DNA of 64,000 bases from an uncultured Actinomycetota bacterium. GTDB taxonomy: Bacteria > Actinomycetota > Acidimicrobiia > Acidimicrobiales > Bog-793. The position numbers and the translations under genes were made by a program. The stretch spans positions 1,804,272 through 1,868,271 of the forward strand of contig CAVVDX010000001.1 of assembly GCA_963747085.1 (NCBI GenBank), in the 5' to 3' direction. This document shows, in pieces, positions 4,978 to 46,119 of the stretch. Position 1 is the stretch's first letter, and every line of letters starts with the position of its first letter. Under the pieces are notes generated by a model, which did not search any database, had not been told where the DNA came from, and saw only the letters and a list, made by a program, of their open reading frames with translations.

Positions 4978-7053
4978 CTACTGCGCAGACTGCTGGGAAG
5001 CTGGACCCTTACTGTCTCCCGAGTCCAAGGCTCCGGCCGGCGCAGCAGCCGCCGGTCGGTCACTGGCCGATGCCTCGAGGCGGTCGATGAGGTCAGCCAG
5101 GCGTGATACCTCCTTGTGCTTCTCGAGGTAGTCCCTGGTAACTGCGCTTTGCGTTGGCGATCAGCGTGTCGTAGGTGACAACGCGAGTGTTGATCCCGGC
5201 GAGCGTCGCAGTCACCTCCTCCGGCTTCAGGTCACTCGGGGGCTTCCCGAGTACGGCGATGCACTCGATCTCGTGTGGTTCGTCTGGGAAACTCTCCGCG
5301 AGACACTTTTGGAGTACCACACGGTACTTCCCGATCTGTCCGCGACCAAATCGGCCGTCGTGACGATAACGCTGTAGCGCTTCAGCTCGATGATGATGTT
5401 CTTGCCCGCAGCGGTCCGGTAGCGAATATCGAGCGCGGCCGGCCTTCTCCTCCGGGCTGAGCCCGGCGTCGATCTCGTCGAACTCCTTGCGCACGGACTC
5501 CTCTATGCGCTCGTTGGTGGAAGCCCGCTCCCACGAAGTGTCAAGTAGCCAGAGGTGGTCGAAGAGGTGCGTCTGGATCACCTTCTCCTTGGCGTCGGCA
5601 TCGACCAGGTCGGCGAAGGAGCTGATGACGCTGACCCGACCTTTGGCGATCTGTCCGTACTCGGCGGCTTCGATGTCGTCGATGGTCGCGAATGCCTTGC
5701 CGATCACGTCGAACTGGAGGGCCGTCTCGTCGAGCTTGTCGACCTCGCTGAGCAGGTCCCGTAACCGAAGCCGCTCGAAGGCGAGGATGCCGTGCTTGTA
5801 CAGCTCGAGCCGATCCGCCTCTCGTTCGAGGGCGATGCTTCCCAGTGTTCCCGAAGAGGCGTTTGGCGTAGGTCTTCTGGTCCGCCCCGAGTGAGGAGTA
5901 CCACTCCTCGACCACGGCATTCTTGCGGGCCTTGTCGAGGGAGTGGTTGCGCGACGCCAGTCCCGCCACTTGTTGCCCACCTCGAGGAGCACGGTCTTGG
6001 CGAGGTACTGGGTCAGTGCCTCGAAGCGAGGATCGTCCTCCTTGAGGCTCTGGCGATCGCTCGTCGCGATGTCCGGATCGTCGTCGGAGTCCACGAAGTC
6101 GGCGTGGATCTCACCCATGAGGTACTTGGCGAACACTCCCGCCTGCTTCACCAGTGCGAGCAGGTCCTCGTGGATGAGCTTTCCCGCGTGCCAGGATGGG
6201 GCACGACGTTCGTCTCGTCGTCGATGTTCCGCTGCTCGTCGACGGTGCCGACCCATCCTGTCACGGCCCATCCTAGTCGCCGAGACCGAGCCGGTGATCG
6301 TCTCCTTCTTCTTGGCATTGACACAACGACCGGCGTAGATGTCTCCGACGTCACCGAGGGACCAGAGGTACTCGATGTTGGAGAAGTAGTCTCGATCGCT
6401 GACGCTGATCTCGGACCCGTCGATTGACACGACGAAGCCGTGTTCGGGACCGATCACGCTGAACCGGCGAGCGAGCCGACGGCGGAGCGCGGACCGCGTT
6501 CCTTCCGTGGGACGCAGCCGGAGGTCGGTGAGAGTGATCCTCGTGCCCCGCTCCAGGTTAACGTATGAAGCATCCATCGGTGTCGGGTGGTAACTCCCCT
6601 CGCCTTCGCCCATCTGAGCGCGGATGTCCGACGTCCGGAGGATCGGAATTCGGCCCGCTGACCCCCCTTGACGCTCTCCACCTGCACCGTGTCAGCGATA
6701 GCGAACAGGGACAGCTTGCCGATCCGCTTTCGACCCATGACGGCCCGGCGCCGTGCGGTGACAGAGGCCCCTGCTTTGCGCCGCTCGAACCCAACGTAGA
6801 GGAAGCGATCGTTGAGATCCTTCGGCGTCATTCCGATGCCGTCGTCGGCCACCGAGATCGTCCTGGAGTCCACGTCGATCACGATCTCGACCTCCTCGGC
6901 GTCGGCATCCCACGCATTGGCGACTACCTCGGACAGGACAGCCGGGATGTTGCTGTAGAGGTTGAGCCCGAGATGGTCGACACGCTTAGGCTGAGCCTCA
7001 TCGTGTACGGGTGCGAGTCCTCGGCGGTCGGCACGTCGTCTGGCATCAGCCAA
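4978..7053 (-). pseudogene. GHKL/MORC-like ATPase (HATPase_c_3-type) with a C-terminal ExK (PD-(D/E)xK-like) motif; about 8 frame breaks
   Basis: The Bergerat-fold N-terminus reads LGLNLYSNIPAVLSEVVANAWDADAEEVEIVIDVDSRTISVADDGIGMTPKDL..GRKRIGKLSLFAIADTVQVES. Later segments recovered from alternate frames are GWAVTGWVGTVDEQRNIDDETNVV, NHSLDKARKNAVVEEWYSSLGADQKTYAKRLFG, HLFDHLWLLDTSWER and LDIRYRTAAGKNIIIELKRYSVIVTTADLVAQIGKYR. The tail ..RSYQDYLEKHKEVSRLADLIDRLEASA.. ends at TAG 4978-4980. The TTG 7053 start is tentative. Confidence 0.7.
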
Positions 7054-7127
7054 GGATGCCTCATCCCCGGTGACCCCGACGCCTCGGATGGGGTCAGGCA
7101 GCCGATTCGTCCGGCGATCCCGAGCGG

Positions 7128-8086
7128 CTATCCTGCTCGGCGGAACTCCTCGTAGCGCTCCTCGAACCGCTCCGGGTCCGGTCGGGCCGTGCGAGGCTCG
7201 GGGCCGGATCAGCTGGACCCCGGCCATCTCCTGCAGTCCGTGGAGCGGCATCGGTCCGTCGATCTGGGCGTGGACGTCGGAGCGCACCTCCACCACCAGG
7301 TCGGCCGCACGCCAAGTGGATTCTCGTCGTAAGCAGCGTGGTGCATCTTGCACAGCGACAGCCCGTTGGGAACGATCGGTGCGCCCCTCGGGTGCCCGTC
7401 GGGGAGGATGTGGGCGGCGTCGAGCAGCGACGAGTACCGCAGTCGGCACATGGCGCACTGGTTCGCGTAGGCGGTCAACACTCCGATACGGAAGACCGGC
7501 TGGTGCAGCCGCTGGCGGGTCAGCCGTTCGATGTAAGGCGCTGCGTCTCGTCACCGACATCGCCGACGGACACCAGGCGCTGCGCCACGTCGAAGGCGAC
7601 CACGAACTGGAGCTGAGCGGGCTCGTCGCCCACGATCCAGATCGGGTAGACGGGCACGTACGGCCCGCCGCGGCGGCCACGAACCACACCAGCGGCAGAC
7701 CGTGGTCGAACGCCTGCCGAGCGACGTTCTCGGGGTGGGAACGATCGATGCCTCGGTACTTGTAGCGGAGCAGCCCGTCCGGTCCCTCGGCATCCTCGTA
7801 GGGTGGGGCCTGGCCCGGGGGGGAAGCGGGTCCGGATGGACAGAGCCACCGTCATGTGGGCCGGCTTGCGGATGCCGCGCTGCGGGTCCATTAGTGGCAT
7901 CCGCCGGCCCTCGAAGCTGAACTCGGCCAGCTCGTCGAAGGATAGGACCTCGCGGCCGGTGGCGACCCGCTCGTCGAGCCATGCCATGGCGGCCACCCGC
8001 AGGCGATCCTCGTAGTCCCTGTCGATGACGGAATCGTACGACGCAGTGGGGCTCCAACCCCGGGAGCTTGGACCCACCAAGGCCAA
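7128..8086 (-). pseudogene. HNH endonuclease (HNH_2-type) with an N-terminal domain of unknown function; about 5 frame breaks
   Basis: HNH core: LTAYANQCAMCRLRYSSLLDAAHILPDGHPRGAPIVPNGLSLCKMHHAAYDEN (ORF 7209-7481). The N-terminal region, reassembled across frames, reads ..LSFDELAEFSFEGRRMPLMDPQRGIRKP..PPGQAPPYEDAEGPDGLLRYKYRGIDRSHPENVARQAFDHGLPLVWF..YVPVYPIWIVGDEPAQLQFVVA. The tail ..RPDLVVEVRSDVHAQIDGPM..LHGLQEMAGVQLIRPEPRTARPDPERFEERYEEFRRAG ends at TAG 7128-7130. The breaks coincide with G/C runs, for example G7 at 7817-7823. Confidence 0.7.
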
Positions 8087-8112: not shown

Positions 8113-9284
8113 ATGCCGTCCTCGTACGATCGGGTCGTGGAGGGATGCCCGGTCTGTGCTGCGGATGCCGATTTCATCAACATGGCGCGCCGGCCGGATT
8201 ATGAATCCCTCACCCCGAGGTTACGGGCGGCCGACCTCTTGCGGCGGGGGAGGCCTCAGTCTCGGCTTCGCCGAGGCCGCGAGGCGGATCGGTCGCGGGA
8301 TCAAGATCGCGGCCGCCGTGGACAGGTTCGACGCCGCCGACGCCGAACCTAACTTTCCCGGCGCCACGGTGACCCGTCAGGACGTCGCCGCTATCTTCGA
8401 TGGTGCGGCCGGCGGCCGTCCACCGTCAGCGAGACGGAACGGTCGGCCGAGATCGGTAAGGTCGATATCCTGCTCGCGGGTCCACCCTGTCAGGGCCATT
8501 CGGACCTCAACAACCACACCAGCAGAGACGACCACCGTAACGGGCTCTACGTGCGAGTTGCCCGGGCGGCCGAAATCCTCAGCCCTCTGGCTGCCGATCG
8601 AGAACGTCCCCGCTGTGCACCACGATATCGCGGGTCGGTGCCGGCCGCGAGCCCGGCCCTCGAAGGCCGGTTATCGCGTGGCGACGGCGGTCCTCGACCT
8701 CACCGAACTCGGCGTTCCGCAGCGCCGTCGCCGCCACCTGTTGCTCGCCCTCCGCGACCAGCGGATCGACCCGACGCCATACTCGGGACCACCATCGCCT
8801 GTTGCGACCACAAGTCCCGAGGCGTGGCATGGGCGATCCGCGACCTCCTGGGGGCGTTTCGCCGACCGGCCCGAACGCGCCGAGCACTGCAAACGCCGAG
8901 AACAGAAGCGGATGCACTGGCTGTCGCCAACGCAAGTATGACCTGCCGAACAAGCGACGACCGACTGTCCACCACGACGACCACAGCTACGCGTCAATGT
9001 ACGGCCGACTGGATTGGAGGCTTGCACAGACGATCACTACCGGCTACGGTTCCCCGGGCCAGGGCCGTTATGTCCATCCCGCAGAGGCCAGGACGATAAC
9101 TCCCCACGAGGCAGCCCGGCTCCAGACGCTGCCGGACTTCTTCGACCTCGGGCTAAGAAGACACGGGGCACCTGGGCTCACGTCATCGGCAACGCGGTGC
9201 CACCCCTGCTAGGGGTCCACGTCGGCATGCCACCGCCGTCCGCCCTCTTCCCGCCCAAAAAGGACCGCATCCCCCCCCCGATGA
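8113..9284 (+). pseudogene. dcm: DNA (cytosine-5) methyltransferase (candidate DISARM DrmMII equivalent); at least 6 frame breaks
   Basis: Motif I: ..AADL/CGGGGLSLGF. Motif IV: VDILLAGPPCQGHSDLNNH. ENV motif: PIENVPAV. Also GYRVATAVLDLTELGVPQRRRRHLLLA. C-terminal motifs: TITTGYGSPGQGRYVHP..RTITPHEAARLQTLPDFF and IGNAVPPLLG. These are spread over all three forward frames (ORFs 8068, 8156, 8551, 8802, 9014). The proposed stop TGA 9282-9284 follows a C9 run. Confidence 0.8.
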
Positions 9285-9724
9285 CGGACTCCTCCCCCGC
9301 ATTGCCGGGTCCCGCAGGGTCGAGCGAGGTGATTCTGCAACGGATGAGGACGACCAGGCGACGGGACACAAAACCCGAGTTGCTGCTGCGCTCGGAATTG
9401 GACCGCCGAGGCATGCGGTACGCGGTCGATCAGCCCGTGGATGGCACCCGGGGGCGAGCCCACATCGTCTTCAAAGGTGCCCGGGTCGCGGTCTATGTCG
9501 ACGGCTGTTATTGGCATGGCTGCCGTCCACGGCACGATGCCCAAGAGCAACGGCCAGTGGTGGAAGGAAAGCTCGACACCAACCGCTCACGGGACGCCGA
9601 CACCGATGCGAGGCTCACCGAGGCCGGTTGGACCGTGTTGCGGTTCTGGGAACACGATGATCCGGTCGAGTCGGCCGCCAAGGTGGTCGCCGTAGTCCGA
9701 GGGGAGATCGCCGGGCGTCGCTGA
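9281..9724 (+). pseudogene. vsr: Very-short-patch (T:G mismatch) repair endonuclease Vsr; two frame breaks
   Basis: MTDSS..RMRTTRRRDTKPELLLRSELDRRGMRYAVD..RAHIVFKGARVAVYVDGCYWHGC is followed in an alternate frame by ..HGTMPKSNGQWWKE. It then returns to KLDTNRSRDADTDARLTEAGWTVLRFWEH. ATG 9281 overlaps the proposed dcm stop (ATGA), like the dcm-vsr overlap in E. coli. Confidence 0.8.
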
Positions 9725-9766: not shown

Positions 9767-12164
9767 ATGCCAGCCCAACTCCGTGTGACGGCACAGCCGT
9801 CCGCGAGAATCACCAGCGTGAGCGCAACGACGAGCGAACCGAGGGCAGCCTGGGATGCCGTGCTGCTTGAGCACGAGGGCGGGGCAAGCCTCGTCACCAT
9901 CGCTCGCGACCGCAGGCTCGTGCTGGAGGACGCCCATGGGCCGCACTGGGTGGACCTCTCTTGGGTCGACGAGGCCGCCCTCGCTCTGGTCGATCTGGCT
10001 GTCCGGCGTGGCCAGAGCGTCGACCTGGTGTATCCCGCCCCTGCGGGCACGGTCGCCGTGCTCCTCGCGGCTCAGCTCCTGCTCGGTCGGTTCCTGGCCA
10101 CCCGCGGTGCGAGGGGGCTCCCTCGCCGTCTCTCGGACTGGTCACCGCTGACCCCACCATGGCCGAGCGGGTCTGGAAGCAGCTCCGGATCGCGACGCTG
10201 GGCGACCGTGCCCCGATCGACGAGGTCTTCGCGTGCTTCCGCGCTGGACCTGACGGCGAGAGCCCCGTCGGCGGCCGGCGCTTCACCGGCATCATCATCG
10301 GCCAGGCGTGCGCCGGCTGGCCGGTCGACTGCCTTGTCGTCGACCACCTCGCGGGACTGGTGAGTGTTCCGAGCGGACAGGCGTCGGTCGAGGTCTTCGC
10401 CGACCCTCTCGACCCAGCGCTCCGTCGGGCCGAGCACGATGGCCGACTGCTCTGGGGATGGGCCGACTCCGACCTCGCCCGATGGAACGATGCCCTTGAG
10501 ATCCACCCGACCACACGGTGCCGTTCTCGGTCGCCACCGAGCGCCTGAGCGCCATCGCCCACGGGGTCGATGTCACCATCTCCGTCGCTCACCACGCCGA
10601 CGCCGAGGCTGCATTGGCCCGGGTCCGCGAGGACCTGCGGCTGCTGCGAGTCCTGACCCCCGAGCGCTCCAACCGCCACGTCGAGCGCGGCCTGTCGGCC
10701 GCCTGGCACCATTCTCGACCTTGACCTCGCTCGCCTGTGAACCGGGCCGTTTCGACCGGTTCGCGGGGCTGCCGCCGTGGGCTGCTCGTGCGACCCGCAC
10801 CTTCGAGCCAGAGCTGACCGCCTGGGCACGCACTCTCGACGGCGACCAGGCGGAGATCGCCACCCTCCTGGCCAGCGACATCGGCGACCTCCGCGCTGCC
10901 CTCGACACCGTCAACCCACTGGGATCGGCGGTCGCCGAGCTGGCCGGGGGCGACACCGCGGCGCTCGTCGTGACCAAGACCAAGACCGCCTCTCGGGCGC
11001 TTCTCGATGCCCTCGGAGCTGACCCCGACGCGAGCGCCGTCGGCCCGCTCAGCGTGTGTGCCATCGGCCGTCTGCACCGACACGGGACGTGGCCTCGGGC
11101 GGTCGTCGTCGGAGAACCGGCGCCGTGGGACTGGCATCGGATTTGTCCGGCCTCTCGATCGAGGTGACCGTTCTGGCGCTCGGCGAGGCCTCGGGTCGGA
11201 CCTGCGCCGCCAGCGTCGACAGCGTCCGCGCCGCCCGGGAACGGTGGGGCAGCCCCGAGATCCGAGGCAGGACCTGGCGGACGCTGCTCGGCACCGATCC
11301 ACCGCCAGCCCCGGCGCCCGTCGCCGCCAGGCCGCCGGCGCTCGTCCTCGACGGCGCCGAATTGGTGCCGAACCCGACCCCTTCGAGCCCTTCGACTCCC
11401 TGTTCGACCTCGATCCGCTCGACATCGGCGACGAGGGACCCACGTCCCAGCTCGCCCGCCAGCTCGACGACGGCGACTGGGCGGCCGCCGTCGCCGCCGT
11501 CGTCGTGACCACCGACAGGGGTCGGGTGCTGCTCGAGGAGGCAAGATCGGTCGAGGTGCGAGTCGGTCCCAAGATCGAAGACCGGCGGCCGCTCAAGCTC
11601 CTGCATGGCGATGTCCTCCTCATCGGCCGCCGGCAGGGCCGGGTCGGCCTGCTCGAAGCCCTGGAGGAACGACTGGGAGATCGGCCCGACCTGCTCGCCG
11701 CACGGATGCTCCTCGACCGCTACCACCAGTTGGTCCGCGCCCGATTCGCCCAGTCGGGATTCAGCATCGCCGATCTCCACCGCAAGCTGGAGGCGCTCGG
11801 GTGCGACAAGACGGCGTTCGCCGTCCGCAGCTGGGTGACCGAGGGCGGGATCATGGCGCCTCGTGATCTCAGCGACCTGCGGCTGCTGTGCGTGGCGCTC
11901 GACCTCGGTATGTCCGACGTCCAGATCGGTGAACTGTTCGCCTGCGTCCAGCGCCGTCGGGTGTTCCGCCGGGCCGCCGGCCGGGCGCTCGCCGAGGCTG
12001 CTCGAAGCTCGACCCTCGTCGGGGACCAGCGTCGCGTCGATCCCGACACCGGCCTATCCATCGCCGACCTCCGCGACGCTGTCATCGAGGCAGTTGTCCT
12101 CGAAGTCCGGCCTTGCGAGGAACGGGTGCCGCTGACCCTGCTGGGACGACTGGAGAGCACGTGA
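9767..12164 (+). pseudogene. drmE: DrmE-like protein of about 800 aa (assigned by size and position only); five frame breaks
   Basis: Protein-like text can be followed through ORFs 9767, 9961, 10518, 10364, 11056 and 11007, with switches near 10112-10125, 10505-10515, 10700-10712, 11138-11142 and 11365-11375. It ends ..VPLTLLGRLEST at TGA 12162-12164, overlapping the drmA GTG (GTGA). I could read no catalytic motif. Confidence 0.45.
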
Positions 12165-15100
12165 CCGATCAGCTCAGTTCTGCCCACTGCACCACCTTCG
12201 TCTCGTGGATGCTCGACGGTGTCGTCGCCGAGGCGCGGGGTGACCGCATGCAGTTCCTGCCCGTCGCCCCCAAGGGTCGCTTCTGGCTGGGCCGGCTCGC
12301 CCCGGAGATCGTGGTCCAGAACAGCCGACTGGGGGAGCGAAGCGAACGGTTGGAGCCGTGCGAGGTCGGTATACGGGTTCGCCCCTCGGCCATCGATGGC
12401 CGCTCGGTCTCGTGCTCGGCTCAGTTCGTCGTCTGGAGCGAGTTCGACGGCGGCGATCAGCCGGACGCCGACAAGTGGCGCAAGAGCGAGCCCATCGAGG
12501 TGACCGCGACATTGCCGATCCCGAACGCCATCGCCCAGGTAACGTCCGCCGGCCGCGATGCCTTCGAGCGGGCGCTCGCCGGCAACGGGGCTGTTGGCAT
12601 GAGCTGTGAGTTCCACGCCGAACTTGAGTTCGGCAAGGACGGCCCCGAACTCGTCGTCACGCTGGTCAACATCTCGCCCGAGGAACTCGACGGCTGGGAC
12701 ACCAACCTCTACGAGGCGTCGATGACCGCCGATGTCGGCGCGACCGAGCCCTTCACCCTGGACAACCTCCCCGATTCGTTCCGGTACGAGCGGACGGTCC
12801 CGGCCTACGGCGTCAACGGCGGCGTCGAGCTGGTCTCGTCCACCGTCTTCCAGACCACCGACGTCGCCGTCCGCGATCAACCGCGGCCGGACTATTGGGA
12901 CCACGAGGCCGGCACGGCGCCGGACATCACCTTCGCGGCCCTGGCAGACGACCCGATGCCGAGCCTGCGGAACCTCGTCACCCTGGCAGCGCAGTGGGGT
13001 GACCACCACTGGTCCGATCAGGTGCTCGCCGGCCGGGCCGACCACGAGCACTGGGACGAGGGCATGCGCCAGCTTGCCGCAGAGGAGGCAGCCGCCTTCT
13101 TCGACGAGCTGGCCCGGCTCCAGCAGGGGGTCACGCTGCTCGACGGCGACGAGGGGCTGCGACGCGCCTTCCGGTTCGCCAACCGGGCCTTCGCAACGTC
13201 ACCCGCCGTGCCCCATGGGGGCTGGCGAGCGTTCCAACTCGGCTTCGTGCTCGCCAATGTCGCCTCCATCGCCGACGATTCGCCGCACGGCCCCCGCGAG
13301 GTCGTCGACACGCTCTGGTTCGCCACGGGCGGCGGCAAGACCGAGACCTACCTCCTCTACGTGGTGACGGCTGCGTTCTTCGACCGTCTCCGTGGCAAGC
13401 GCGAGGGGATCACGTCCTGGGGCCGCTTCCCGCTGCGGATGCTGTCGCTTCAGCAGACGCAACGCTTCGCCGACGTGCTCGCTGCCGCCGAACTCGTGCG
13501 CCGCGACGAACAGATCGACGGCCAGCCCTTCTCGCTCGGCTTCTTCGTGGGCAACAACGGGACTCCCAACAAGATCCCCACTGCCCGCGATCACCGGCCG
13601 GGTCAGCCCGACCCCAACGACGCCGAGATGCCTGGCCGCTACCAGGTCCTGCTCCGCTGCCCCTTCTGTACCTCTTCGTCGCTCGAGATGCGCTTCGATC
13701 AGCAGCGCTGGGCCCTCGACCACGTCTGCACCGCCGCAGACTGCCCGTGGGGAGGCCGGCCGTTGCTCATCCGCGTCGTCGACGAGGAGATCTACCGCTC
13801 GCTGCCGACGGTCGTCCTCGGCACGCTCGACAAGGCGGCGAGCATCTCGATGCAGGCGGCGATGCGCGGCTTCTATGGGCCACCGGCCGGACGCTGCCCC
13901 CAGCAGGGGCACGGCTACACCTACGCGCCGAGGAGCAAGTCCCCGTCCGGATGCCTCTTCCCGGGCTGCTCGGCGCAACCCGGCCCGCTTCGTCAGGACG
14001 CCGCGATGTTCGCCCCCACCATCCGGATGCAGGACGAGCTGCACCTCCTCCGCGACAGCCTGGGGGCGGTCGATGCCCACTACGAGGCCCTGCTCGACGC
14101 GCTCCAGACCCATTACGGCTCGACCCCGAAGATCATCGCCTCTTCGGCCACCCTCGCCGGTCACGACGAGCAGGTGGCTGCGCTCTACCGCCGCGAGGGA
14201 CGAACCTTTCCCCGTCCTGGCCCGCGGGTCGGTCACTCGTTCTGGTCCCGCGACACGGAGAAGCTCGCCCGGCGGTTCGCGGGCGTCGCACCGCGTGGCG
14301 TGACGCTGGAGTACGCCACCGACCAGCTCACCGAGGCGCTCCAACGCGTGACGCGGCGAGCGATCGACGAGCCTGCTGCCGTCGCCGCCGAGACCGGCCT
14401 GGCGACCGACCTCTTCCCCGCTCTCGTGTCGATCTACGGCGTCGATGTGGTCTACGGCTCGACGCTCAAGGACGTCGAGGCGGTGGCACGTTCCTTCGAC
14501 ACCCAGATCCAGCTCTCCCGCCCGGTCAACGCCGCGACGCTCACCGGCCGGACGCCGCTCGACGAGGTCCGCGCCACGCTGGCCCGTCTCACGCACCCCG
14601 AGGCCGACTTCTACGACCGGATCCATCTCGTGGCGGCGTCGTCGATGCTCTCCCACGGCGTCGACATCAATCGGCTCAACGTCATGGTCATGCTCGGGCT
14701 GCCGCTCGCCACCGCCGAGTTCATCCAGACGACCTCACGAGTCGGACGCACCCACCCCGGTCTCGTTATCGTCCTCCACAAGATCGGCCGCGAGCGCGAC
14801 GCCGCCGTCTACCGCACCTTCCCGTCATTCGTTGCCCATGCAGATCGCCTGATCGATCCCGTGCCGGTGACGGCCAAGAGCCGTCGGGTGCTGGAGCTGA
14901 CCTTCGCTGGACTCGTCCAGGCCCGCCTCTTCGGGATCCATGAACCTGCGGCGATCGCCGCCAACCTCAGACAGCTCACTCTCCCGGCCGCGGTGCGACG
15001 GGCCTTCGCCCGCCTCCCCGTGCTGGAGCCGGCGGAACTGGCGGCACTGGTCGCGATGCTCGCCTTCACGGGGCCACTCGACGAGAACCTGAGACAGGAT

Positions 15101-15256
15101 CTCCAGACCTACCTGCGCGAGTTTTTCCGTGCCCTCAACGACCCGGCCAGCAGCGCCCATTGGGTCGACGATCTCTTCCCTACGGGCAAGCCGATGCTGT
15201 CCCTGCGGGACGTCGAGGAACAGGCTCCGGTCTACTCAAGGGGCGGTCGGTCGTGA
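12161..15256 (+). CDS. drmA: DrmA-like SF2 helicase (DISARM core), intact
   Basis: Uninterrupted ORF (12113-15256; likely GTG start at 12161). Walker A: LWFATGGGKTETY (13322-13345). Motif II: IRMQDELHLL (DELH at 14033-14044). Also IIASSATLAGH, and motifs V-VI VAASSMLSHGVDINRLNVMVMLGLP..AEFIQTTSRVGR. A CPFC...C..DCPWG zinc-knuckle insert is present. Confidence 0.8.
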   Translation: MTDQLSSAHCTTFVSWMLDGVVAEARGDRMQFLPVAPKGRFWLGRLAPEIVVQNSRLGERSERLEPCEVGIRVRPSAIDGRSVSCSAQFVVWSEFDGGDQPDADKWRKSEPIEVTATLPIPNAIAQVTSAGRDAFERALAGNGAVGMSCEFHAELEFGKDGPELVVTLVNISPEELDGWDTNLYEASMTADVGATEPFTLDNLPDSFRYERTVPAYGVNGGVELVSSTVFQTTDVAVRDQPRPDYWDHEAGTAPDITFAALADDPMPSLRNLVTLAAQWGDHHWSDQVLAGRADHEHWDEGMRQLAAEEAAAFFDELARLQQGVTLLDGDEGLRRAFRFANRAFATSPAVPHGGWRAFQLGFVLANVASIADDSPHGPREVVDTLWFATGGGKTETYLLYVVTAAFFDRLRGKREGITSWGRFPLRMLSLQQTQRFADVLAAAELVRRDEQIDGQPFSLGFFVGNNGTPNKIPTARDHRPGQPDPNDAEMPGRYQVLLRCPFCTSSSLEMRFDQQRWALDHVCTAADCPWGGRPLLIRVVDEEIYRSLPTVVLGTLDKAASISMQAAMRGFYGPPAGRCPQQGHGYTYAPRSKSPSGCLFPGCSAQPGPLRQDAAMFAPTIRMQDELHLLRDSLGAVDAHYEALLDALQTHYGSTPKIIASSATLAGHDEQVAALYRREGRTFPRPGPRVGHSFWSRDTEKLARRFAGVAPRGVTLEYATDQLTEALQRVTRRAIDEPAAVAAETGLATDLFPALVSIYGVDVVYGSTLKDVEAVARSFDTQIQLSRPVNAATLTGRTPLDEVRATLARLTHPEADFYDRIHLVAASSMLSHGVDINRLNVMVMLGLPLATAEFIQTTSRVGRTHPGLVIVLHKIGRERDAAVYRTFPSFVAHADRLIDPVPVTAKSRRVLELTFAGLVQARLFGIHEPAAIAANLRQLTLPAAVRRAFARLPVLEPAELAALVAMLAFTGPLDENLRQDLQTYLREFFRALNDPASSAHWVDDLFPTGKPMLSLRDVEEQAPVYSRGGRS

Positions 15257-16947
15257 GGGTCGAGCGGGGAGCGTCGCAGATCCTCTTCGGGCTCCTCCCT
15301 GGCCAAACTGCGGATCTCGAGGGCCGCATCTGGCGCGTCACCAACTGGGTCGACCCGGTCCAGACTGCACTCGACCAGGACACGGTTCGGTCGGCCCTCA
15401 TCGCCGCCATCGCCCCGTGGGCCGCCACTGGCAACGACGACGGTCTGACCGCCGAGCTGCGGGCCAGAGCCGCGGTCGACATCGTGAGACTCAACATGGA
15501 TCGCGGCGTGCTCGTCGAGCCTTTCCCGCAGCAGTGGCGCTGCAAGACCTGCGGCACGATCACTGCGTTCGCGTGACGACCGCTGTCCCTGCGGTGGACG
15601 AACTCGGGCGCAGATGCAGTTCGTCTCTTACCACACGTGCGGGGCGGCACGAGAGCCGATCCTCCAACCCTGCCGGACCCACAACGCCGTCGCTGTGCAC
15701 CTGCCCGGCACGTCCACCGCCCGCGAACTCCGCTTTTTCTGTCCTCAGTGTCGAGCAACGATCTCCCAGGGCTTCCCGTACCAGGTGTGCAACTGCGGCG
15801 GCGGGATGAGCGTCACCGTCCACCGTGCCGCCGTCGTCTTTTCGCCCCGGTTCGCAGTCCTCGTCAACCCGCCCGACCCGGCCACCGCCGCCCGGCTCAG
15901 AGCCGGCGGTGGTGGCGCTCGCGCGCTGGAGTGGGTGGTCGACGGCATGACCACCGACGACCCCACCGCCGGCCGACAGACCCTGGCCGGCCTCGTGGAG
16001 GGCTTTCGCCAGATGGGGTTGTCGGAGGCGACCGCGCACGATCTCGCCCGCCAGGCGGCGGCGCAGGGCGAGGTCGATGCCGGAGCTGCCAATCCGATCG
16101 CGCTCCAGGACCCTGTTCGGGAGAAGGCGCAGGAGGAGGCACTGAGCCTCGCCTCCGCTGTCTCGGGCGGCCGAACCCGGGTGGCCGACATGGTGGCCGG
16201 CACGACGCCGCCGCTGCGCACCCTCTACGAGGGCGCGTATCACGACGCCACGCGCGCCGCCCATCTCGAGGGCGTCGATCTGCTGGCCAACTTCCCCGTC
16301 GCAACCCTCGGCTTCGGCTACACCCGCGGCGACATGAACCCCGGCGTCGCCCGTCTGGTGCCGTTTCGCGATCGGGGTCACATCCGAGCCTATGCATCCC
16401 TCAGTCGGACGGAGGCGCTGCTGTTCCGGCTCGATCCCCTCGCGGTCCTCCATCACCTGACGGTGACCGGACACCCGCTGCCGCCGGCTGTGGATGCACG
16501 AGCGGCACGGCTCGCGATCCTCGAGAATCTCGACATCCCCTGGCCGACCCAGGAGCAGTACCAGCCGCTCGGCGGGAGCGTGCTGTTGCTGCTCCACTCC
16601 TATGCGCACCGAACCATCCGCCGGCTCGCGGCCTTCGCCGGCATCGACGCGACGGGTTGGCCGAATACCTGCTGCCCCACCATCTCGGATTCGTGGTGTA
16701 CGCCGCCTCGCGCGGTGACTTCGTCCTCGGCGGGCTACAGGCGGTCTTCGAGACCTCGCTGCATCGCTTCCTCGAGGACTTCGTCGCGGGCGAGTCACGC
16801 TGTGCCCTCGATCCCGGCTGTCGCAGCGGCGGCGGTGCATGCATGGCCTGCCTGCACCTGGGCGAACCCTCCTGTCGCTGGTTCAATCGCTTCCTCGACC
16901 GTTCCCAGCTCTTCGGTGAGCACGGCTTCGTGCTGGACGCTCGCTGA
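15253..16947 (+). pseudogene. drmB: DrmB-like DUF1998 protein (DISARM core); two frame breaks
   Basis: GTG 15253 overlaps the drmA stop (GTGA). Reads ..FPQQWRCKTCGTITAF, then after a break at ~15570 RDDRCPCGG..FVSYHTCG..FFCPQCRA..CNCGG. After a break at ~16648 it reads GLAEYLLPHHLGFVVYAASRGDFVLGGL..SRCALDPGCRSGGGACMACLHLGEPSCRWFNRFLDR, the DUF1998-type Cys cluster. Confidence 0.75.
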
Positions 16948-16949
16948 CG

Positions 16950-17688
16950 GTGCACGACGCCGAACTGGTCGGCGGCGTCCTTTACGCCGCCCCCGATCCG
17001 TGGAGCACTGCACACGATCTCGCGGGGCTCCTCGCCGCGCCTCGGACCGATCGCCGGCAGGCGTCCGGCCTCGGTCTCGATCCCGACCTCGTCGACGTGC
17101 TGCGTGCTCACTTCGGCGGTGATCGCCCGCGGATCGACACTGCCTGCGACCTCGGGGCGGCGTGGGTCCTCGGGCGCCGTTCGGTCGTGAGCGCTGAGCC
17201 GTGGGACCTCGTCGCCTCGCTGCCGGCGAATACGCCGCTGCCGACGCGGCCTGACCCGCACGACCGCCGAGACCCTGGTGCAGCTCGTGACCCAGTCGAC
17301 GACGTCACTTCGGTTGGCGGCACCGTTCATCGACCTGCCGGGCATCTCGCACCTGGCCGACGGCCTCGCGGCGGCGACGGCCCGAGGCGTCCACCTCGAG
17401 ATCCTGCTGCCCACCCGCTCGACCCATGCTGGGGGAGCGCTCCACGAACTGCGCGCCACGATCGCCAGGGACGGCAACAGCGCCAACCTGTCGGTCGCGG
17501 CAATCCGCGAGGACGCTCCGTGGGCGCACTTGAAAGCGCTCACGTCGGACTCGCGGGCCGCCTACATCGGCAGCGCCAACGTCACCGGCGCCGGTCTGGC
17601 AGGCCTGAACCTTGAGCTGGGCATCCTCGTCCGTGGGCCGGCGGTTGCCGTCGTCGAGCGGGTGCTGGACCTGTTCCGCGAACGCTGA
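16950..17688 (+). pseudogene. drmC: DrmC-like PLD-family nuclease (DISARM); one frame break
   Basis: GTG 16950 lies 2 nt after the drmB stop. The break is at ~17247. The downstream frame (ORF 17278-17688) holds a single HKD motif, HLKALTSDSRAAYIGSAN (17527-17580). Confidence 0.75.
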
Positions 17689-20721: not shown

Positions 20722-21349
20722 CCCTGGAACCGAAGAGGTTGACCGGGCACTTCTAGCCGCCTGGTCGTACCTGATCGCCCAACCACTTCCTCCGTCGTTG
20801 CCAACGCCGTCCGGGACCGTCTAGCGACCGTCGGGTCGTCCCCGGCGACGTTCACAATCGCCCATTTCCGCTCGGTCCAGTAGCGTAAGGCTCTTCCCTG
20901 TTTCTCCACGCGGCCGTCGTCATTGCGGTCCGCGATCAGATAGGCGGTAGAGGTCGGGCGCCTCCGACCTGCGGCCTTAGCTTAGAGGTGGGGCTAACCA
21001 CTGGACCACTACGTCGGCCCCAGTCAGCCACACCCCTGGTCAGGATCCAAGGAGCAAAATGACCCGTCCCTTTAGTGCCACCGCTAGGGAGTTCGCCGTC
21101 TCTGTATCAACCTCATCGAGAATCCCAATGAGAGACCCCTTGAGTTCACTTTCTAGACTTGGTAGGAGTTCGCCTGGAATGCCATTGCCACTATCGTCTG
21201 ACGGCCAGGCATCGGCGACGAGGTGGAGGACTTGAAACAACACGTAGTAACAGCGGATCGCCGGATGATTCGGCCCAGCTCCAACAACTTTCCGCTAGAT
21301 CCGCGAGTTGCGCCGGTGGAAACCTTCAGACCTTCCGAGTGCTAACTCG

Positions 21350-21928
21350 CTAAGCGCTGACGGGATCAAGTACAACTGGCTCGATGCAGAGATCATGATA
21401 TGTCACTAGCGGGCAATAAAGAATACCCTTATCGGCGAAGAACTTTGCAGCAACATCGCTACGATCAACGAGCGTAATCGCAGCGACTACGTGGCCGCCC
21501 TCGCTCTCAACTGCATCGAAGGCCTGTTGGATCGAACCGCCCGAGGTTACGACGCCATCCACTAGGACCACCGGGAGCACCACGACCTTGGCGCCCTCAA
21601 TCAGTTTGTTCGTTCCTCGCCGCTTCTCCTGCTTGCGCACTGAGAACCACTTCTTGTGCGCCAAATATGACATAACGTGTGCGAAAGCATCAGCCCCCAT
21701 GGTCAGACCACCGACCGCCTCATAATCGATATCTCTTGCCTCCAAGAAGCTCGATGAACGCAGTGCACACGAGGGCGAGATCGTCGCCATCTTCAAGAGC
21801 GGCCTTGCCGTCGATAAAGTCTTTGCTCGTCGCTCCCGAGGCGAGTTCCCGGGGACTATAAATAAATGAGCCCCTTCCTCGCGACGGGCAATTTGGACCA
21901 CTCGGTCCTTCAGAACACTCAGGGTCAT
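21350..21928 (-). pseudogene. Phosphoribosyltransferase (PyrE/OPRT-like PRTase fold); two frame breaks
   Basis: PRPP-binding loop: VVLVDGVVTSGGSIQQAFDAVESEGGHVVAAITLVDR. Also GGLTMGADAFAHVMS..FSVRKQEKRRGTNKLIEGA. The N-terminal segment HLFI/YSPRELASGATSKDFIDGKAALEDGDDLALVCTAFIELL sits in the alternate frame (ORF 21720-21959). Confidence 0.65.
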
Positions 21929-22138
21929 CCTCCGTCTCGCCTTGACGGGACACGGCCACCGGAAGCCGTCATCCTCCCATGTTTCGCTGAGTCGTGGCCA
22001 GCGGGTCCCGCCTCGGTGCGCCGCTGTGCTATGGGCTCTGGTCCTGTTTACCGTAACAAGCTACGGTATTCGAAACAGACCTCAGGGTGGTGGATACCAG
22101 GTCCCCGTCCTCGTACTCCCGATCCCCGCATCCACCAG

Positions 22139-22637: not shown

Positions 22638-23797
22638 CTAATCCGCCGAGCGAGACAGCGTCAACGTGCGGCCGAGGCTCGCGGCCAACTCCCAGTCGCG
22701 CTGCTCGACGGCGTGGGAGTACACACGGAGCGTGACGGAAGGGTCGGCGTGGCCGAGCCGAGCGCCCACGGTCACGGCATCGAAGCCGGCGGCGATTGCC
22801 TGGGTCGCGGAGAAGTGCCGGAGCGCGTGGAGGTGGGTGTCCACGCCGGCCCGCTTGGCGACCCTGATCGTGAACTTCGTGAGGACGTCGAGCCGCATCG
22901 GTTCGAGCCCGGCTGGCGAGCGCTAGAACATGAAGGCATGCGGCGCCACGGCCACCCCGAGGTCGCGGGCCAGGGTGTCGATCTGTCGCGGTGGCGTCGG
23001 AGAATCTCAACGCCAAGGTCGTCCAGGCCCACCTTGCGCGCTGCGTGGGTTTTTGTCGCCTTCTCGCCCCACCCACCACCGGGCGTCTCGTAGATCGAGC
23101 GGGCGACGCGGAGCGTGCGAGCCTCGGCGTCGAAGTCTGACCATCGCAGCGCACACAGCTCGCCCCGCCGGGCTCCTGTGAGGGCGGCCAGCGAGAGCAG
23201 CGCTGCGAAGGCCGGCTCGATCGCCTCGGCGACTTCGATGATGGCGCGCACCTGCTCGGGGTCAGGAGCCTCGACCTGCGAGGCGTGCACAGGTGGCGGC
23301 GTGGCCCGCTTGCTGACGTTGCGGTCGATCAGGCCCCACTTCTCGGCCTGGTGGAGCGCGACGCCGATCAGGGCGTGGACGTGGCGGACGGTCATCGGCT
23401 TCAGGCCGCGGGCGACGAGCCGGGCGTACAGGCGGTCGAGGTCGACAGCAGTCAACCGGGCGAGCCGGACGCCGCCGAGTTCCGGGCGAAGGATGGTGTC
23501 AGCGATGCGGCGGTACTCCCGGAGCGTCGTCGGCGAGCGGCCGATCGACTCGGCGTGCTCCAGGAAGCGGTCGAGCAGATGGCCGACTGTCTCGGTACCG
23601 GTCGCCGTGTTGCCCTTAGCGACCTCGGCGACCATCCGGGCCAGCTGCCGGTCGGCCTCCCGTACGCCCGAGCCCGGCCGGCCATCGCCCGTGCGCACGG
23701 TCTCGCTGCGCTGGATGGGCTGGCCCTTGGCGTTGCGGCCCAGGTAGACCCGCAGGCGCCACACACCCGCGCTGACTTCGTCCTTCGTTCCCTGCAT
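22638..23797 (-). pseudogene. int: Tyrosine-type site-specific integrase; one frame break plus an in-frame TAG
   Basis: MQGTKDEVSAGVWRLRVYLG..TLREYRRIADTILRPELGGVRLARLTAVDLDRLYARL..ALLSLAALTGARRGELCALRWSDFD.. reads to a break at ~22985. It continues ..QIDTLARDLGVAVAPHAFMF, hits TAG at 22923-22925, and then reads RSPAGLEPMRLDVLTKFTIRVAKRAGVDTHLHALRHFSATQAIAAGFDAVTVGARLGHADPSVTLRVYSH (R..HxxR..Y catalytic residues). Confidence 0.85.
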
Positions 23798-23874
23798 GCC
23801 GCCATTGTAGTCCGGAAGTAGTCCGACAACTGAGGCGACGTGCGAGCAGCGAGACGAAGCAGCGCTCACACCTG

Positions 23875-23959
23875 CGGAGGGAGGGGGATTCGAACCCCCG
23901 GTCCCTCGCGGGACAACGGTTTTCAAGACCGTCGCAATCGTCCGCTCTGCCATCCCTCC
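23875..23959 (-). tRNA. tRNA-Ser (anticodon UGA)
   Basis: The minus strand reads GGAGGGATGGCAGAGCGGACGATTGCGACGGTCTTGAAAACCGTTGTCCCGCGAGGGACCGGGGGTTCGAATCCCCCTCCCTCCG. It has a 7-bp acceptor stem, the anticodon loop CTTGAAA, a long variable arm and a GGGGG/TTCGAAT/CCCCC T-arm. Confidence 0.9.
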
Positions 23960-24017: not shown

Positions 24018-24434
24018 TCAGCGAGCCGGCCGAACGCTCACGCCGGCGCGCAGCGCCCGCGGGATCTCGGCGACGTCGTCCACCTTGTCCAAGAGGCGCT
24101 CCACGAGCTCCGGCTCAGCGTCGGTGATCAGCTCCAGCGCGTACTCGACGCCGGTCGACGCCCAGCTGACGGCGTCGAACCCGCCGGCCGCTTCGACGCG
24201 CACCCCGGCCAGCTCGATGCCAAGATCGGCCGCCTCCCGATAGCAGTCGTTGAGGACGCAACCTGCGACGGCGAGGTGGAGCAGGTGAGCCCCGGTGAAG
24301 TCGGCCTCGACGGTCACCCCGCCGGGCGTCCAGCGGTGCGGGAACCCGACCACGTCCGACGCCACCGAGCGCAGCGTGCCAGCGCTGGCGACCACCTTGT
24401 ACTGCTCCTCCACGCCCGCCCTCCTCTTCTCCAC
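24018..24434 (-). CDS. OsmC/Ohr-family protein
   Basis: The 138-aa ORF includes ..GGVTVEADFTGAHLLHLAVAGCVLNDCYREAADLGIEL.. Size and the conserved-Cys context resemble the OsmC family (assigned from recall). Confidence 0.5.
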   Translation of the reverse strand: MEKRRAGVEEQYKVVASAGTLRSVASDVVGFPHRWTPGGVTVEADFTGAHLLHLAVAGCVLNDCYREAADLGIELAGVRVEAAGGFDAVSWASTGVEYALELITDAEPELVERLLDKVDDVAEIPRALRAGVSVRPAR

Positions 24435-24446
24435 AGTGGTGCGCTC

Positions 24447-25432
24447 CTACGACCCGGCGCCCGGCAGCTTGGCGCGAAGCCCGGCGATCCAGTCCCGCGC
24501 GGCGAGACGGCGCACGGCGATCTGCTCGCGCACCTCCGACGAGCCGGCTCCGACCGCAGGGTAGGAGCCGAGGAACTTCACGTCCTCGAGCTCGACGCGC
24601 AGCTCTTCGAGGCAGTCGGCGAGCAGCTCGTCGGCGAGGTGCCCCTCCACGTCGATGACGAAGCAGTAGTCGCCGAGGGCCTGCTTGGTCGGCCTGGACT
24701 CGATGCGGGTCAGGTTGAGGCTGCGCGCGGCGAACTGGCCGAGGATCTGGTGCAGGTTGCCGGGCCGGTCGGCATGCTGGAAGCAGACGATGGACGTCTT
24801 GTCGTGCCCCGTCGGGCGGGGTCACGCGGTCCGGCCCGACGAGGACGAAACGGGTCTGGTTGCCCTCGTGGTCCTCGATCGCGTGCGCCAGCACCTCGAG
24901 CCCGTACAGCTTGGCGGTGAGCCCCGGTGCGATGGCGGCCTCGCCGGCTGCACCGGACTCGGCCACGGTGCGCGCCGCCTCGGCGGTCGAGCTCGCCGCC
25001 ACGACCGCGGCCCCCGGAAGGTGGGCGCCGAGGAAATTCGCGGCATTGCGCGCTGGCGACGGGAAAGGACAGGACGCGCCCGACCGCCGAGGCGGTGGTG
25101 CCCGGGCGGGCAAGGAGGTCGAGGTGCACGTCGAGCACGACCTCGCGCTGGATGAGCAGCTCGGCGTCGAAGACGAGGCGGTCCAGGGTGACATTGACCG
25201 AGCCCTCGATCGAGTTCTCGATCGGGACGAAGGCGGCGTCGACCTCGCCACGCTCGGCGGCGTCGATCGCCTCCTCGATGGTCGGCATCGGCACGAGCTC
25301 TCGCGCGGCGAGGTCGGCCTCGCCGAGCAGGGCTTCCTCGCTGAACGTGCCGGGCGGGCCGAGGTAGGCGATGCGCGCCGGCGCCGGCAGCGGCGCGCGC
25401 CCGACAGGCGGGCTGTCCGGTCGGGGGGGCAC
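24447..25432 (-). CDS. pheA: Prephenate dehydratase; two frame breaks (possible sequencing indels)
   Basis: RIAYLGPPGTFSEEAL..VPIENSIEGSVNVTLDRL.. (ORF 24710-25432) continues as ..NFLGAHLPGAAVVAASSTAEAARTVAE..AAIAPGLTAKLYGLEVLAHAIEDHEGNQTRFVLVG. The ACT domain follows: GHDKTSIVCFQHADRPGNLHQILGQFAARSLNLTRIESRPTKQALGDYCFVIDVEGHLADE.. (frame of ORF 24447-24650). Confidence 0.85.
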
Positions 25433-25446
25433 GGCTGGCAGGATAG

Positions 25447-35998: not shown

Positions 35999-36597
35999 TC
36001 AAGAGAGCAAGAATAGGCAGCTGAACAGTCCGATCCAGACGATGTCGACGAAGTGCCAGTAGTAGCTGACCGCCTGGAACACGGCGGTCTCGCCCGGGTC
36101 ACCCTTCGGGCCGTACAGCCGGCCGAGCAGGGCGATCATCGCAACCAGGCCGAGGATGACGTGCAGGCCGTGCAGCCCGCTCATGATGTAGAAGAGCGAG
36201 CCGTAGACGTTGGTGTGCGGGCGGAACGGAAGGGTCTTCCACTCGTAGGCCTGGTTGGCGACGAACGCCGCGCCGAGCAGGAAGCTGGCGACGATCCACG
36301 CCTTGGCCTTGCCGCGCTCGCCGCGCTCCTGCGCCCAGACCCCCATCTGCATCGTCGGGCTCGAGGCGAGCAGCACGAAGGTGAAGGCGAGCGCCTGGTA
36401 GGTGTCGAGCTTGGTGCCCGGCGGCGGCCAGACCGGGCGTGGGCACGGATCGTGAAGAAGGCGGCGAACAGCCCGGAGAAGAACATGAACTCCGAGCCGA
36501 GCCAGATCATCACCCCGACGGCGAGCAGCTGCGGCCGCTTGGGGTGGGCGGGCCCACCGGCGGCAACCGGCACCGCTGCGGCAGTCAGCTCGCTCAC
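35999..36597 (-). CDS. ctaE: Cytochrome c oxidase subunit III; one frame break near ~36430
   Basis: [43 protein letters not shown] (ORF 36181-36597) continues as ..[58 protein letters not shown] (ORF 35999-36808). Confidence 0.85.
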
Positions 36598-36740
36598 GCC
36601 TCTTTCTTAGCCGAACGGGTGCGGCCGACACCAACCGGCACCAACCGGCTCCCGAGGCGCAGCGCGGTCGCCGCCGGCACCGGCGCCGGGCCGGCGAACG
36701 ATGGCGGCGCACCGATGGCGGCGGCGCACGAGGCGGCGGC

Positions 36741-46094: not shown

Positions 46095-46119
46095 CGGCTC
46101 CTCCTCGATCCTGTCACGG

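What the first reader, a model, noticed from the sequence alone, without database searches (positions are those of the whole stretch)
9767..12164. An ~800-aa motif-less gene in the DrmE position: DrmE homologue or a new DISARM partner?
The protein upstream of drmA can be read continuously only by hopping through six ORF pieces. It shows no nuclease, ATPase or methylase motif that I can recognise. Its C-terminal third (..RVLLEEARSVEVRVGPKIEDRRPLKLLHGDVLLIGRRQGRVGLLEALEE..DLHRKLEALGCDKTAFAVRSWVTEGGIMAPRDLSDLRLLCVALDLGMSDVQIGELF..) looks like a folded, HTH-like region.

The DrmE call rests only on length and position. All five frame switches go in the same direction: the start-coordinate residues mod 3 run 2,1,0,2,1,0. 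That fits five single-base losses.
Basis: inference. Interest (0 to 1): 0.6.

Follow-up and report, generated by a model that had tools for sequence, protein, structure and literature searches.

The report
Frameshift-riddled drmE gene of DISARM
This is an ordinary, if divergent, copy of drmE, the function-unknown gene of the class 2 DISARM anti-phage system, and its five reading-frame breaks are almost certainly single-base assembly errors rather than biology.

Summary
One + strand gene (GTG 9818 to TGA 12164) is readable only by hopping frames 2,1,0,2,1,0. A 95%-identical metagenome contig (L001) carries the same gene intact. Against it, the window lacks exactly five single bases. Restoring them gives a clean 783-aa ORF, 99.4% identical to P0001.

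The protein is a DrmE homologue, not a new partner:
- Profile-profile comparison with 26 proteins that match NCBIfam DrmE_fam gives 100% probability, E 7e-53, over the full length.
- Every intact locus reads C5 methylase(-Vsr), this gene, drmA, drmB, drmC.
- It scores below the curated DrmE cut-offs, so it is a divergent subfamily found mostly in Actinomycetota-type genomes and MAGs.

The frameshifts are best read as long-read consensus errors:
- Housekeeping genes in the same window (COX1, ferrochelatase, prephenate dehydratase) are also broken inside Pfam domains.
- Substitutions against L001 are third-position dominated, while indels are almost all 1 bp.
- Short-read assemblies of the operon are unbroken, whereas several Nanopore MAGs show scattered breaks.

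An AlphaFold model (pLDDT 84) shows an SF2, RIG-I-like helicase fold without a Walker A motif. The C-terminal domain has no significant structural match. Low interest.

The parts
9818..12164 (+). drmE (divergent subfamily). 783 codons after repair. Read in six frame pieces: 9818-10112, 10113-10507, 10508-10712, 10713-11143, 11144-11367, 11368-12164.
10112..10113 (+). missing base 1 (G; G6 run in L001, G5 here)
10507..10508 (+). missing base 2 (G)
10712..10713 (+). missing base 3 (C, in a TCTCTC context)
11143..11144 (+). missing base 4 (C)
11367..11368 (+). missing base 5 (C; CCC in L001, CC here)
9917..11289 (+). predicted SF2 helicase-like core of DrmE: RecA1-like aa 34-258, all-helical insertion aa 261-377, RecA2-like plus two long helices aa 383-492. 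The motif I position reads YPAPAG and the motif II position reads VVDHLAG, with no Walker A lysine.
   Evidence: the placement of these peptides at the motif I/II positions is by eye; window coordinates derived from residue numbers
11433..12161 (+). C-terminal module of DrmE: small beta domain (aa 541-611), helical DrmE_C domain (aa 613-735, the only part that DrmE HMMs detect), terminal beta hairpin
8137..9724 (+). drmMII-type C5 cytosine methylase fused to Vsr. Badly frame-broken here: 32 bases missing relative to the intact 576-aa L001 gene.
12161..15256 (+). drmA, intact, 1031 aa. Its GTG start overlaps the drmE stop (GTGA).
15253..16947 (+). drmB, with two frame breaks (about 15565 and about 16650)
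16950..17688 (+). drmC (PLD nuclease family), with one frame break (about 17245)
22707..23959 (-). tyrosine integrase (frame-broken) next to tRNA-Ser (23874-23959). Probable right end of the mobile island that carries DISARM.

Best explanation
The region is the drmE gene of a class 2 DISARM operon. The order is C5 methylase-Vsr, drmE, drmA, drmB, drmC, on an integrase/tRNA-Ser island.

The gene is most likely intact in the organism. The five -1 frame breaks are single-base deletions introduced by an error-prone consensus, probably from a Nanopore-type metagenome assembly.

The protein belongs to a divergent DrmE subfamily found mostly in Actinomycetota-type genomes and MAGs, with single Dormibacteraeota and Chloroflexota MAGs.

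Predicted architecture:
- an SF2 helicase-like core with the domain order of RIG-I-like receptors (RecA1, helical insertion, RecA2, paired long helices), but with no Walker A lysine and no DExx acid pair;
- a small beta domain;
- a conserved helical DrmE_C domain.

Inferred mechanism (not shown): DrmE is a non-catalytic nucleic-acid-binding or adaptor subunit. It helps the DrmA-DrmB helicase complex engage or discriminate incoming DNA. It would occupy the slot held by the active SNF2 helicase DrmD in class 1 systems.
For: Identity as DrmE:
- The close family (A1) compared by hhalign with 26 relatives that all match NCBIfam NF038316 DrmE_fam (five of the ten scanned individually exceed its cut-off) gives 100% probability, E 7.4e-53, 733 aligned columns.
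- Direct HMM hits to the C-terminus: NF038316 at E 2.6e-10, NF038323 at 1e-6, PADLOC DrmE at 5e-5, and Pfam DrmE_C up to 30 bits in P0034.
- Synteny holds in 13 genome loci, including the isolates Jiangella anatolica and Nocardia sp. CY41.
- Neighbours are DrmA (E 4e-102), DrmB, DrmC and a C5 methylase.

Frameshifts as artefact:
- Five 1-bp gaps against L001, and none the other way.
- The repaired ORF has no other lesion. It differs from L001 at 14 codons, 9 of them synonymous and 10 at third positions.
- 168 of 193 indels between the two contigs are 1 bp. They run one way in one region and the other way elsewhere, while substitutions stay third-position dominated.
- COX1, ferrochelatase and prephenate dehydratase outside the island are split inside Pfam domains.
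- Short-read assemblies have every DISARM gene in one frame, apart from a ~1.3-kb insertion in drmC of L009. Several Nanopore 'MFD' MAGs show scattered breaks.
- These MAGs are Nanopore-only Flye assemblies with one Medaka round (PMC12313526).
- Two assemblies of the same Dormibacteraeota genome differ by a drmB frameshift.

Fold:
- AF2 model with pLDDT 83.6 and pTM 0.79.
- Foldseek best PDB hits are LGP2, MDA5, RIG-I and DRH-1 (E 7e-7 to 1e-4, probability 1.0), followed by Pol theta helicase, DEAD-box, SNF2 and HsdR.
- BFVD hits are SF2 helicases.
- No Walker A in 50 relatives.

Function: drmE deletion abolishes class 2 DISARM protection, as cited in bioRxiv 10.1101/2021.12.28.474362.
Against: - The source of the window was not identified. 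Exact look-ups failed, so no reads or coverage could be inspected.
- Frame breaks are roughly five times denser on the island than in the core region. A decaying island would also produce that pattern.
- Indels are not enriched in homopolymers, unlike the classic Nanopore error signature.
- The fold assignment rests on a prediction, with low global TM-scores (0.25-0.32).
- There is no sequence-level link to helicases. hhalign against DrmA found nothing, and PDB sequence searches found nothing significant.
- The proposed role of DrmE is inference only.
Confidence: 0.8

Rival explanations
1. A real pseudogene. The whole DISARM island is decaying in this strain, and drmE has accumulated five genuine 1-bp deletions.
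For: - Frame breaks are much denser on the island (drmE 5, drmB 2, drmC 1, methylase-Vsr many, HNH 2, integrase 1) than in the core.
- Defence islands are often lost or inactivated.
- The indels are not homopolymer-biased.
Against: - About 6-8 lineage-specific substitutions against 5 indels is far from natural indel-to-substitution ratios.
- The substitutions remain third-position and synonymous biased.
- There are no stops or larger deletions after repair.
- Essential core genes (COX1, ferrochelatase, PDT) are broken in the same way.
- The sister contig L001 shows the mirror pattern in other genes, with 21 bases missing in drmB.
- Short-read assemblies are clean.
Confidence: 0.1
2. A new DISARM partner unrelated to DrmE that merely occupies the same position.
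For: - The protein and its closest relatives score below the curated cut-offs of NF038316 (39 vs 80 bits), NF038323 and Pfam DrmE_C (16 vs 27 bits), and only at the C-terminus.
Against: - Full-length profile-profile homology to proteins that match DrmE_fam, E 7e-53.
- phmmer links P0001 to P0198, P0199 and P0215, which pass the DrmE_fam cut-off, over 590-730 residues.
Confidence: 0.02
3. The six pieces are separate small genes, or the frame changes are programmed or phase-variable.
For: None beyond the raw ORF map.
Against: - More than 180 homologues of 770-790 aa are single proteins.
- Intact loci carry one ORF.
- Only two sites lie in runs, and the runs are short (G5, C2), which is too short for slippage.
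- No slippery motif was seen at the five sites (contexts).
Confidence: 0.01

Closest known systems
DrmE of class 2 DISARM (NCBIfam NF038316 DrmE_fam / NF038323 DISARM_DrmE; Pfam PF24957 DrmE_C; PADLOC PDLC02635/02636). Prototype in Bacillus paralicheniformis, Ofir et al. 2018 (own knowledge).
   Same: - Position immediately upstream of drmA-drmB-drmC, with a C5 methylase.
- Length of about 780 aa.
- Full-length profile homology (E 7e-53).
- Conserved C-terminal domain with the T.R.W..G....P.D motif.
- No recognisable catalytic motifs.
   Different: - Only about 21% identity to the DrmE_fam sequences compared.
- Below every curated cut-off, so it is annotated 'hypothetical protein' in public records.
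- The methylase is fused to Vsr and lies upstream rather than downstream.
RIG-I-like receptor / Dicer-type SF2 helicases (LGP2, MDA5, RIG-I, DRH-1)
   Same: - Best structural matches of the model (E about 1e-6, 560-600 aligned columns).
- Same order of elements: RecA1, helical insertion, RecA2, paired long helices, C-terminal domain.
   Different: - No detectable sequence similarity.
- The ATPase motifs are absent.
- The context is bacterial DNA defence.
- The C-terminal domain is unrelated to the RLR CTD.
- Global TM-scores are low, and the resemblance rests on a predicted structure.
DrmD, the SNF2 helicase of class 1 DISARM
   Same: - It is the class-specific accessory gene alongside the drmABC core, as DrmE is in class 2 (the upstream position of drmD is stated; the complementary distribution is own knowledge).
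- SNF2 enzymes appear among the weaker structural hits (CSB, PBAF, Chd1, E about 1e-3).
   Different: - DrmD has intact ATPase motifs and matches Pfam SNF2 models; DrmE has neither.
- Homology between the two was not tested directly.

Membership tests
DrmE family | Full-length homology to accepted DrmE_fam proteins | tested here: met
   hhalign of A1 against A2 gives 100% probability, E 7.4e-53, 733 columns. All 26 A2 members match NF038316.
DrmE family | Score above the curated cut-offs of NF038316 / NF038323 / PF24957 | tested here: not met
   - P0001: 39.2 bits against a cut-off of 80, 27.2 against 250, and 16.2 against 27.
- Some subfamily members pass PF24957 (P0034, 30 bits).
- This is a limit of the models, not evidence against homology.
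DrmE family | Encoded directly upstream of drmA-drmB-drmC with a C5 methylase | tested here: met
   Seen in the window, in Jiangella anatolica and the Dormibacteraeota loci, and in the other genome loci that extend far enough; the methylase lies on the opposite strand in L007 and L017 and was not detected in L015.
DrmE family | Required for DISARM protection | not testable with these tools
   Known only for the Bacillus system, as cited in bioRxiv 10.1101/2021.12.28.474362.
Class 2 DISARM system | DrmA helicase, DrmB, DrmC (PLD) and DrmMII (C5 methylase) all present | tested here: met
   - DrmA: PADLOC E 3.8e-102.
- DrmB E 1.3e-24 and DrmC E 9.5e-17, measured on L003 orthologues that are 80-97% identical to the window pieces.
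- The methylase matches DrmMII and DruM models.
Active SF2 helicases | Two RecA-like domains | tested here: met
   Predicted structure only: Foldseek PDB and BFVD hits with probability 1.0.
Active SF2 helicases | Walker A GK[ST] and DExx motif II | tested here: not met
   No GK[ST] in 50 full-length relatives and no DExx in P0001 or most relatives (scattered, non-aligned matches in 10 of 50). The corresponding positions (assigned by eye) read YPAPAG and VVDHLAG.
RIG-I-like receptors | Hel2i insertion, pincer and RNA-end-binding CTD | tested here: inconclusive
   The domain order in the model is compatible and RLRs are the top hits. But TM-scores are about 0.3 and the C-terminal module has no significant match.

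The most novel reading that the evidence does not exclude
DrmE proteins as a whole are ATPase-dead relatives of RIG-I/Dicer-type helicases. They would act as the nucleic-acid sensor or clamp of class 2 DISARM, giving a structural hypothesis for a component whose function has been unknown since 2018. The frameshifts themselves have no novel reading left.
Probability: 0.35. Interest if true: 0.5.

Novelty: new member of a known kind. Interest (0 to 1): 0.25.

Why it matters
For the scan, this is a caution. Serial same-direction frame hops in a high-GC long-read contig are a signature of consensus indels, and the apparently broken gene is a normal operon member.

For DISARM biology there are two modest gains:
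- A large, unannotated DrmE subfamily, mostly from Actinomycetota-type genomes and MAGs, escapes the current curated models. More than 180 proteins were found, and those that carry a source name are all 'hypothetical protein'.
- The predicted dead-helicase architecture gives a testable idea of what DrmE does alongside DrmAB.

Tried and rejected
Searches that found nothing or could not be run:
- Exact look-up of the window's DrmA (two start choices) and of a LarB-like ORF, to find the source contig: nothing on record.
- Sequence searches of the PDB with three profiles found no solved DrmE. They gave only weak intein and ancestral-Dicer hits.
- hhalign of the DrmE family against DrmA, to test for a paralogous origin: no signal.
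- Foldseek of the C-terminal 231 aa: no significant match, so the HTH idea stays unproven.
- A literature search found no paper describing a DrmE structure or mechanism.

Ideas tested and dropped:
- The homopolymer-error hypothesis. The indels are not homopolymer-enriched, so 'classic homopolymer error' was replaced by 'poor consensus in a strain-variable or low-coverage region'.
- Mismatches as sequencing errors. This is rejected, because the mismatches are third-position dominated.
- Phase variation or programmed frameshifting. The runs are too short and the sites are unrelated.

Full report
**1. The observation**

The window is about 70% G+C, so third-codon-position GC marks the coding frame well. 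The GC3 profile, the three-frame translation and a codon-usage Viterbi path trained on drmA agree. Between about 9820 and 12164 on the + strand, the coding frame runs mod3 = 2,1,0,2,1,0. The mechanical ORF list shows the same six overlapping pieces. tblastn with an intact orthologue hits all six pieces collinearly, with E from 2e-26 to 0.

**2. The frame breaks**

A draft joined protein found 186 homologues. Nearly all are 760-800 aa, and the best, P0001, is 98% identical. Its contig L001 (ENA ERZ25039491, contig_62773) aligns to window 1-22189 at 95.2% identity.

Inside the gene the window lacks exactly five single bases, and L001 lacks none. The gaps lie at 10112|10113, 10507|10508, 10712|10713, 11143|11144 and 11367|11368.

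Re-inserting those bases gives a 783-codon ORF from GTG 9818 to TGA 12162-12164, with no stop or other lesion. It differs from P0001 at 5 residues.

**3. Error or biology**

Several lines point to consensus errors.

- (a) *Substitution pattern.* The 14 codon differences from L001 are 9 synonymous and 5 non-synonymous, and 10 of 14 fall at third positions. That is the mark of purifying selection. Five frame-destroying deletions alongside such a pattern do not fit natural decay.
- (b) *Indel pattern.* Over the 22-kb alignment, 168 of 193 indels are 1 bp. They cluster by region and by contig: 32 bases are missing from the window's methylase-Vsr gene, and 21 are missing from L001's drmB. Substitutions in those same regions remain third-position dominated, at 92 of 155 and 110 of 148.
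- (c) *Core genes are broken too.* Housekeeping genes outside the island are split inside Pfam domains:
  - COX1: profile positions 2-28, then 34-436, with the junction near 45888.
  - Ferrochelatase: 2-178, then 184-311, near 38400.
  - Prephenate dehydratase: 1-104, then 108-179, near 25054, with the ACT domain in a third frame.
- (d) *Assembly type.* Among 13 genome loci, the short-read assemblies have every DISARM gene in one frame, apart from a ~1.3-kb insertion in drmC of L009. These include Jiangella anatolica, Nocardia sp. CY41, a Propionibacteriaceae MAG and others. Nanopore 'MFD' MAGs L006, L010, L016 and L017 show scattered breaks. Two assemblies of one Dormibacteraeota genome differ by a drmB frameshift. 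The MFD catalogue consists of Nanopore-only Flye assemblies polished with one round of Medaka (PMC12313526).

Caveats:
- I could not identify the window's own source.
- Breaks are about five times denser on the island than in the core.
- The indels are not homopolymer-enriched.

The most economical reading is poor consensus over a strain-variable or low-coverage mobile island. A genuinely decaying island keeps about 10%.

**4. What the gene is**

*Context in the window.*
- Downstream lie drmA (12161-15256, intact, PADLOC E 4e-102), drmB (two breaks) and drmC (one break).
- Upstream lies a C5 methylase fused to Vsr.
- drmE and drmA overlap by GTGA.
- A tRNA-Ser and an integrase at 22.7-23.96 kb mark the island end.

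*Synteny.* The order methylase(-Vsr), this gene, drmA, drmB, drmC recurs in every intact locus, including isolate genomes.

*Direct HMM hits.* These detect only the C-terminal ~150-200 residues. They are significant but lie below the curated cut-offs:
- NF038316: E 2.6e-10, 39 bits against a cut-off of 80.
- NF038323: E 1e-6.
- PADLOC DrmE: E 5e-5.
- Pfam DrmE_C: 16 bits against a cut-off of 27 for P0001, and 30 bits for P0034.

*Deeper searches.*
- An exhaustive phmmer search linked P0001 over 590-730 residues to proteins that do pass the DrmE_fam cut-off.
- Profile-profile comparison of the close family with 26 proteins that match DrmE_fam gave 100% probability, E 7.4e-53, over 733 columns.

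The gene is therefore drmE. It belongs to a divergent subfamily found mostly in Actinomycetota-type genomes and MAGs, with single Dormibacteraeota and Chloroflexota MAGs, that current models under-call. The 'new partner' alternative is refuted.

**5. How it may work**

DrmE is described as a gene of unknown function whose deletion abolishes class 2 protection (bioRxiv 10.1101/2021.12.28.474362). Its interplay with DrmAB is listed as an open question (PMC9142583). No solved structure exists by sequence search.

*The model.* An AlphaFold2 model of P0001 built with 59 homologues is confident, at pLDDT 83.6 and pTM 0.79. Its layout is:
- an alpha/beta domain (aa 34-258);
- a helical domain (aa 261-377);
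- a second alpha/beta domain with two long helices (aa 383-492);
- a disordered linker;
- a small beta domain (aa 541-611);
- a helical domain (aa 613-735);
- a terminal hairpin.

*Structural matches.*
- Foldseek against the PDB returns RIG-I-like receptors first: LGP2, MDA5, RIG-I and DRH-1, with E 7e-7 to 1e-4 and probability 1.0.
- Other SF2 enzymes follow: Pol theta helicase, DEAD-box, SNF2, Brr2 and HsdR.
- BFVD returns viral SF2 helicases.
- Global TM-scores are low (about 0.3), as expected for multi-domain proteins in different conformations.

*Motifs.* No relative has a Walker A GK[ST]. By my own placement, the motif I position is an invariant YPAPAG and the motif II position is VVDHLAG.

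*The C-terminus.* The C-terminal 231 aa model well (pLDDT 89) but match nothing significantly. The most conserved motif of the whole family, T.R.W..G....P.D, lies there. Its sequence pattern looks HTH-like, but this is unproven.

*Inference.* DrmE is a catalytically dead helicase-like DNA-binding or adaptor subunit working with DrmAB. It would be the functional counterpart of DrmD in class 1.

**6. Verdict**

The DrmE reading is confirmed. The frameshifts are artefacts with about 85% probability. This is a new, divergent member of a known kind and is of low interest as a genome-scan finding. The predicted pseudo-helicase fold is a modest by-product.

Noticed in passing
window 24039-25446 (-), 36023-36599 (-), 37876-38819 (+), 44394-46122 (-), 50705-51893 (-): Housekeeping genes are split across frames inside their domains. 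Confirmed by Pfam: prephenate dehydratase/ACT (two breaks), ferrochelatase and COX1. Weaker support: COX3 (one piece scanned, sub-threshold hit at E 0.006) and PstS (one piece at threshold, the other with no hit). This is evidence of contig-wide indel errors.
   Followed up: yes
window 8137-9724 (+): The DISARM C5 methylase is fused to a Vsr mismatch endonuclease. The fusion is intact at 576-584 aa in L001 and Jiangella anatolica. Here it lacks 32 bases relative to L001 and is about 9% diverged, mostly at third positions.
   Followed up: partly
window 5074-8044 (-): Divergently oriented pair next to the methylase: a GHKL/HATPase_c_3 protein matching PADLOC REase_II (E 2.5e-97 for the L003 orthologue) and an HNH_2 protein. 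Both are frame-broken. It may be a second restriction module that shares the methylase. The pair is absent from the Jiangella anatolica locus.
   Followed up: partly
window 1-22189 vs L001: Divergence is mosaic. It is 0.4-0.8% across drmE and most of drmA, but 6-14% across the methylase-Vsr gene (8-10 kb) and across drmB, drmC and downstream (15-19 kb). This suggests recombinational module swapping within the DISARM island between strains.
   Followed up: partly
window 22707-23959 (-); GC dip 21001-22000: A tyrosine integrase abuts tRNA-Ser(tga). GC falls to 0.56 at 21-22 kb. This is the probable attachment end of the island. The left end is not in the window.
   Followed up: partly
DrmE aa ~541-611 (window ~11433-11645): The small beta domain gives repeated weak, non-significant similarity to Hint/intein modules. 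By sequence, the profile hits radA, TFIIB and PolII inteins at E 0.05-1. By Foldseek, the local rmsd is about 2 A over ~48 residues at E 0.45 or higher.
   Followed up: partly
L009 15155-17289: In this MEGAHIT-assembled MAG, drmC is interrupted by an insertion of about 1.3 kb, possibly an IS element.
   Followed up: no
window 12161-12164 and 15253-15256: Four-base start/stop overlaps (GTGA-type) link drmE to drmA and drmA to drmB. This suggests translational coupling of the three proteins.
   Followed up: no
L003 vs L004/L006 (same Dormibacteraeota MAG, two records): The two public assemblies are 99.8-100% identical at protein level across the operon. They differ by a drmB frameshift and by truncated upstream genes. 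This illustrates assembly-dependent frame breaks in public records.
   Followed up: partly
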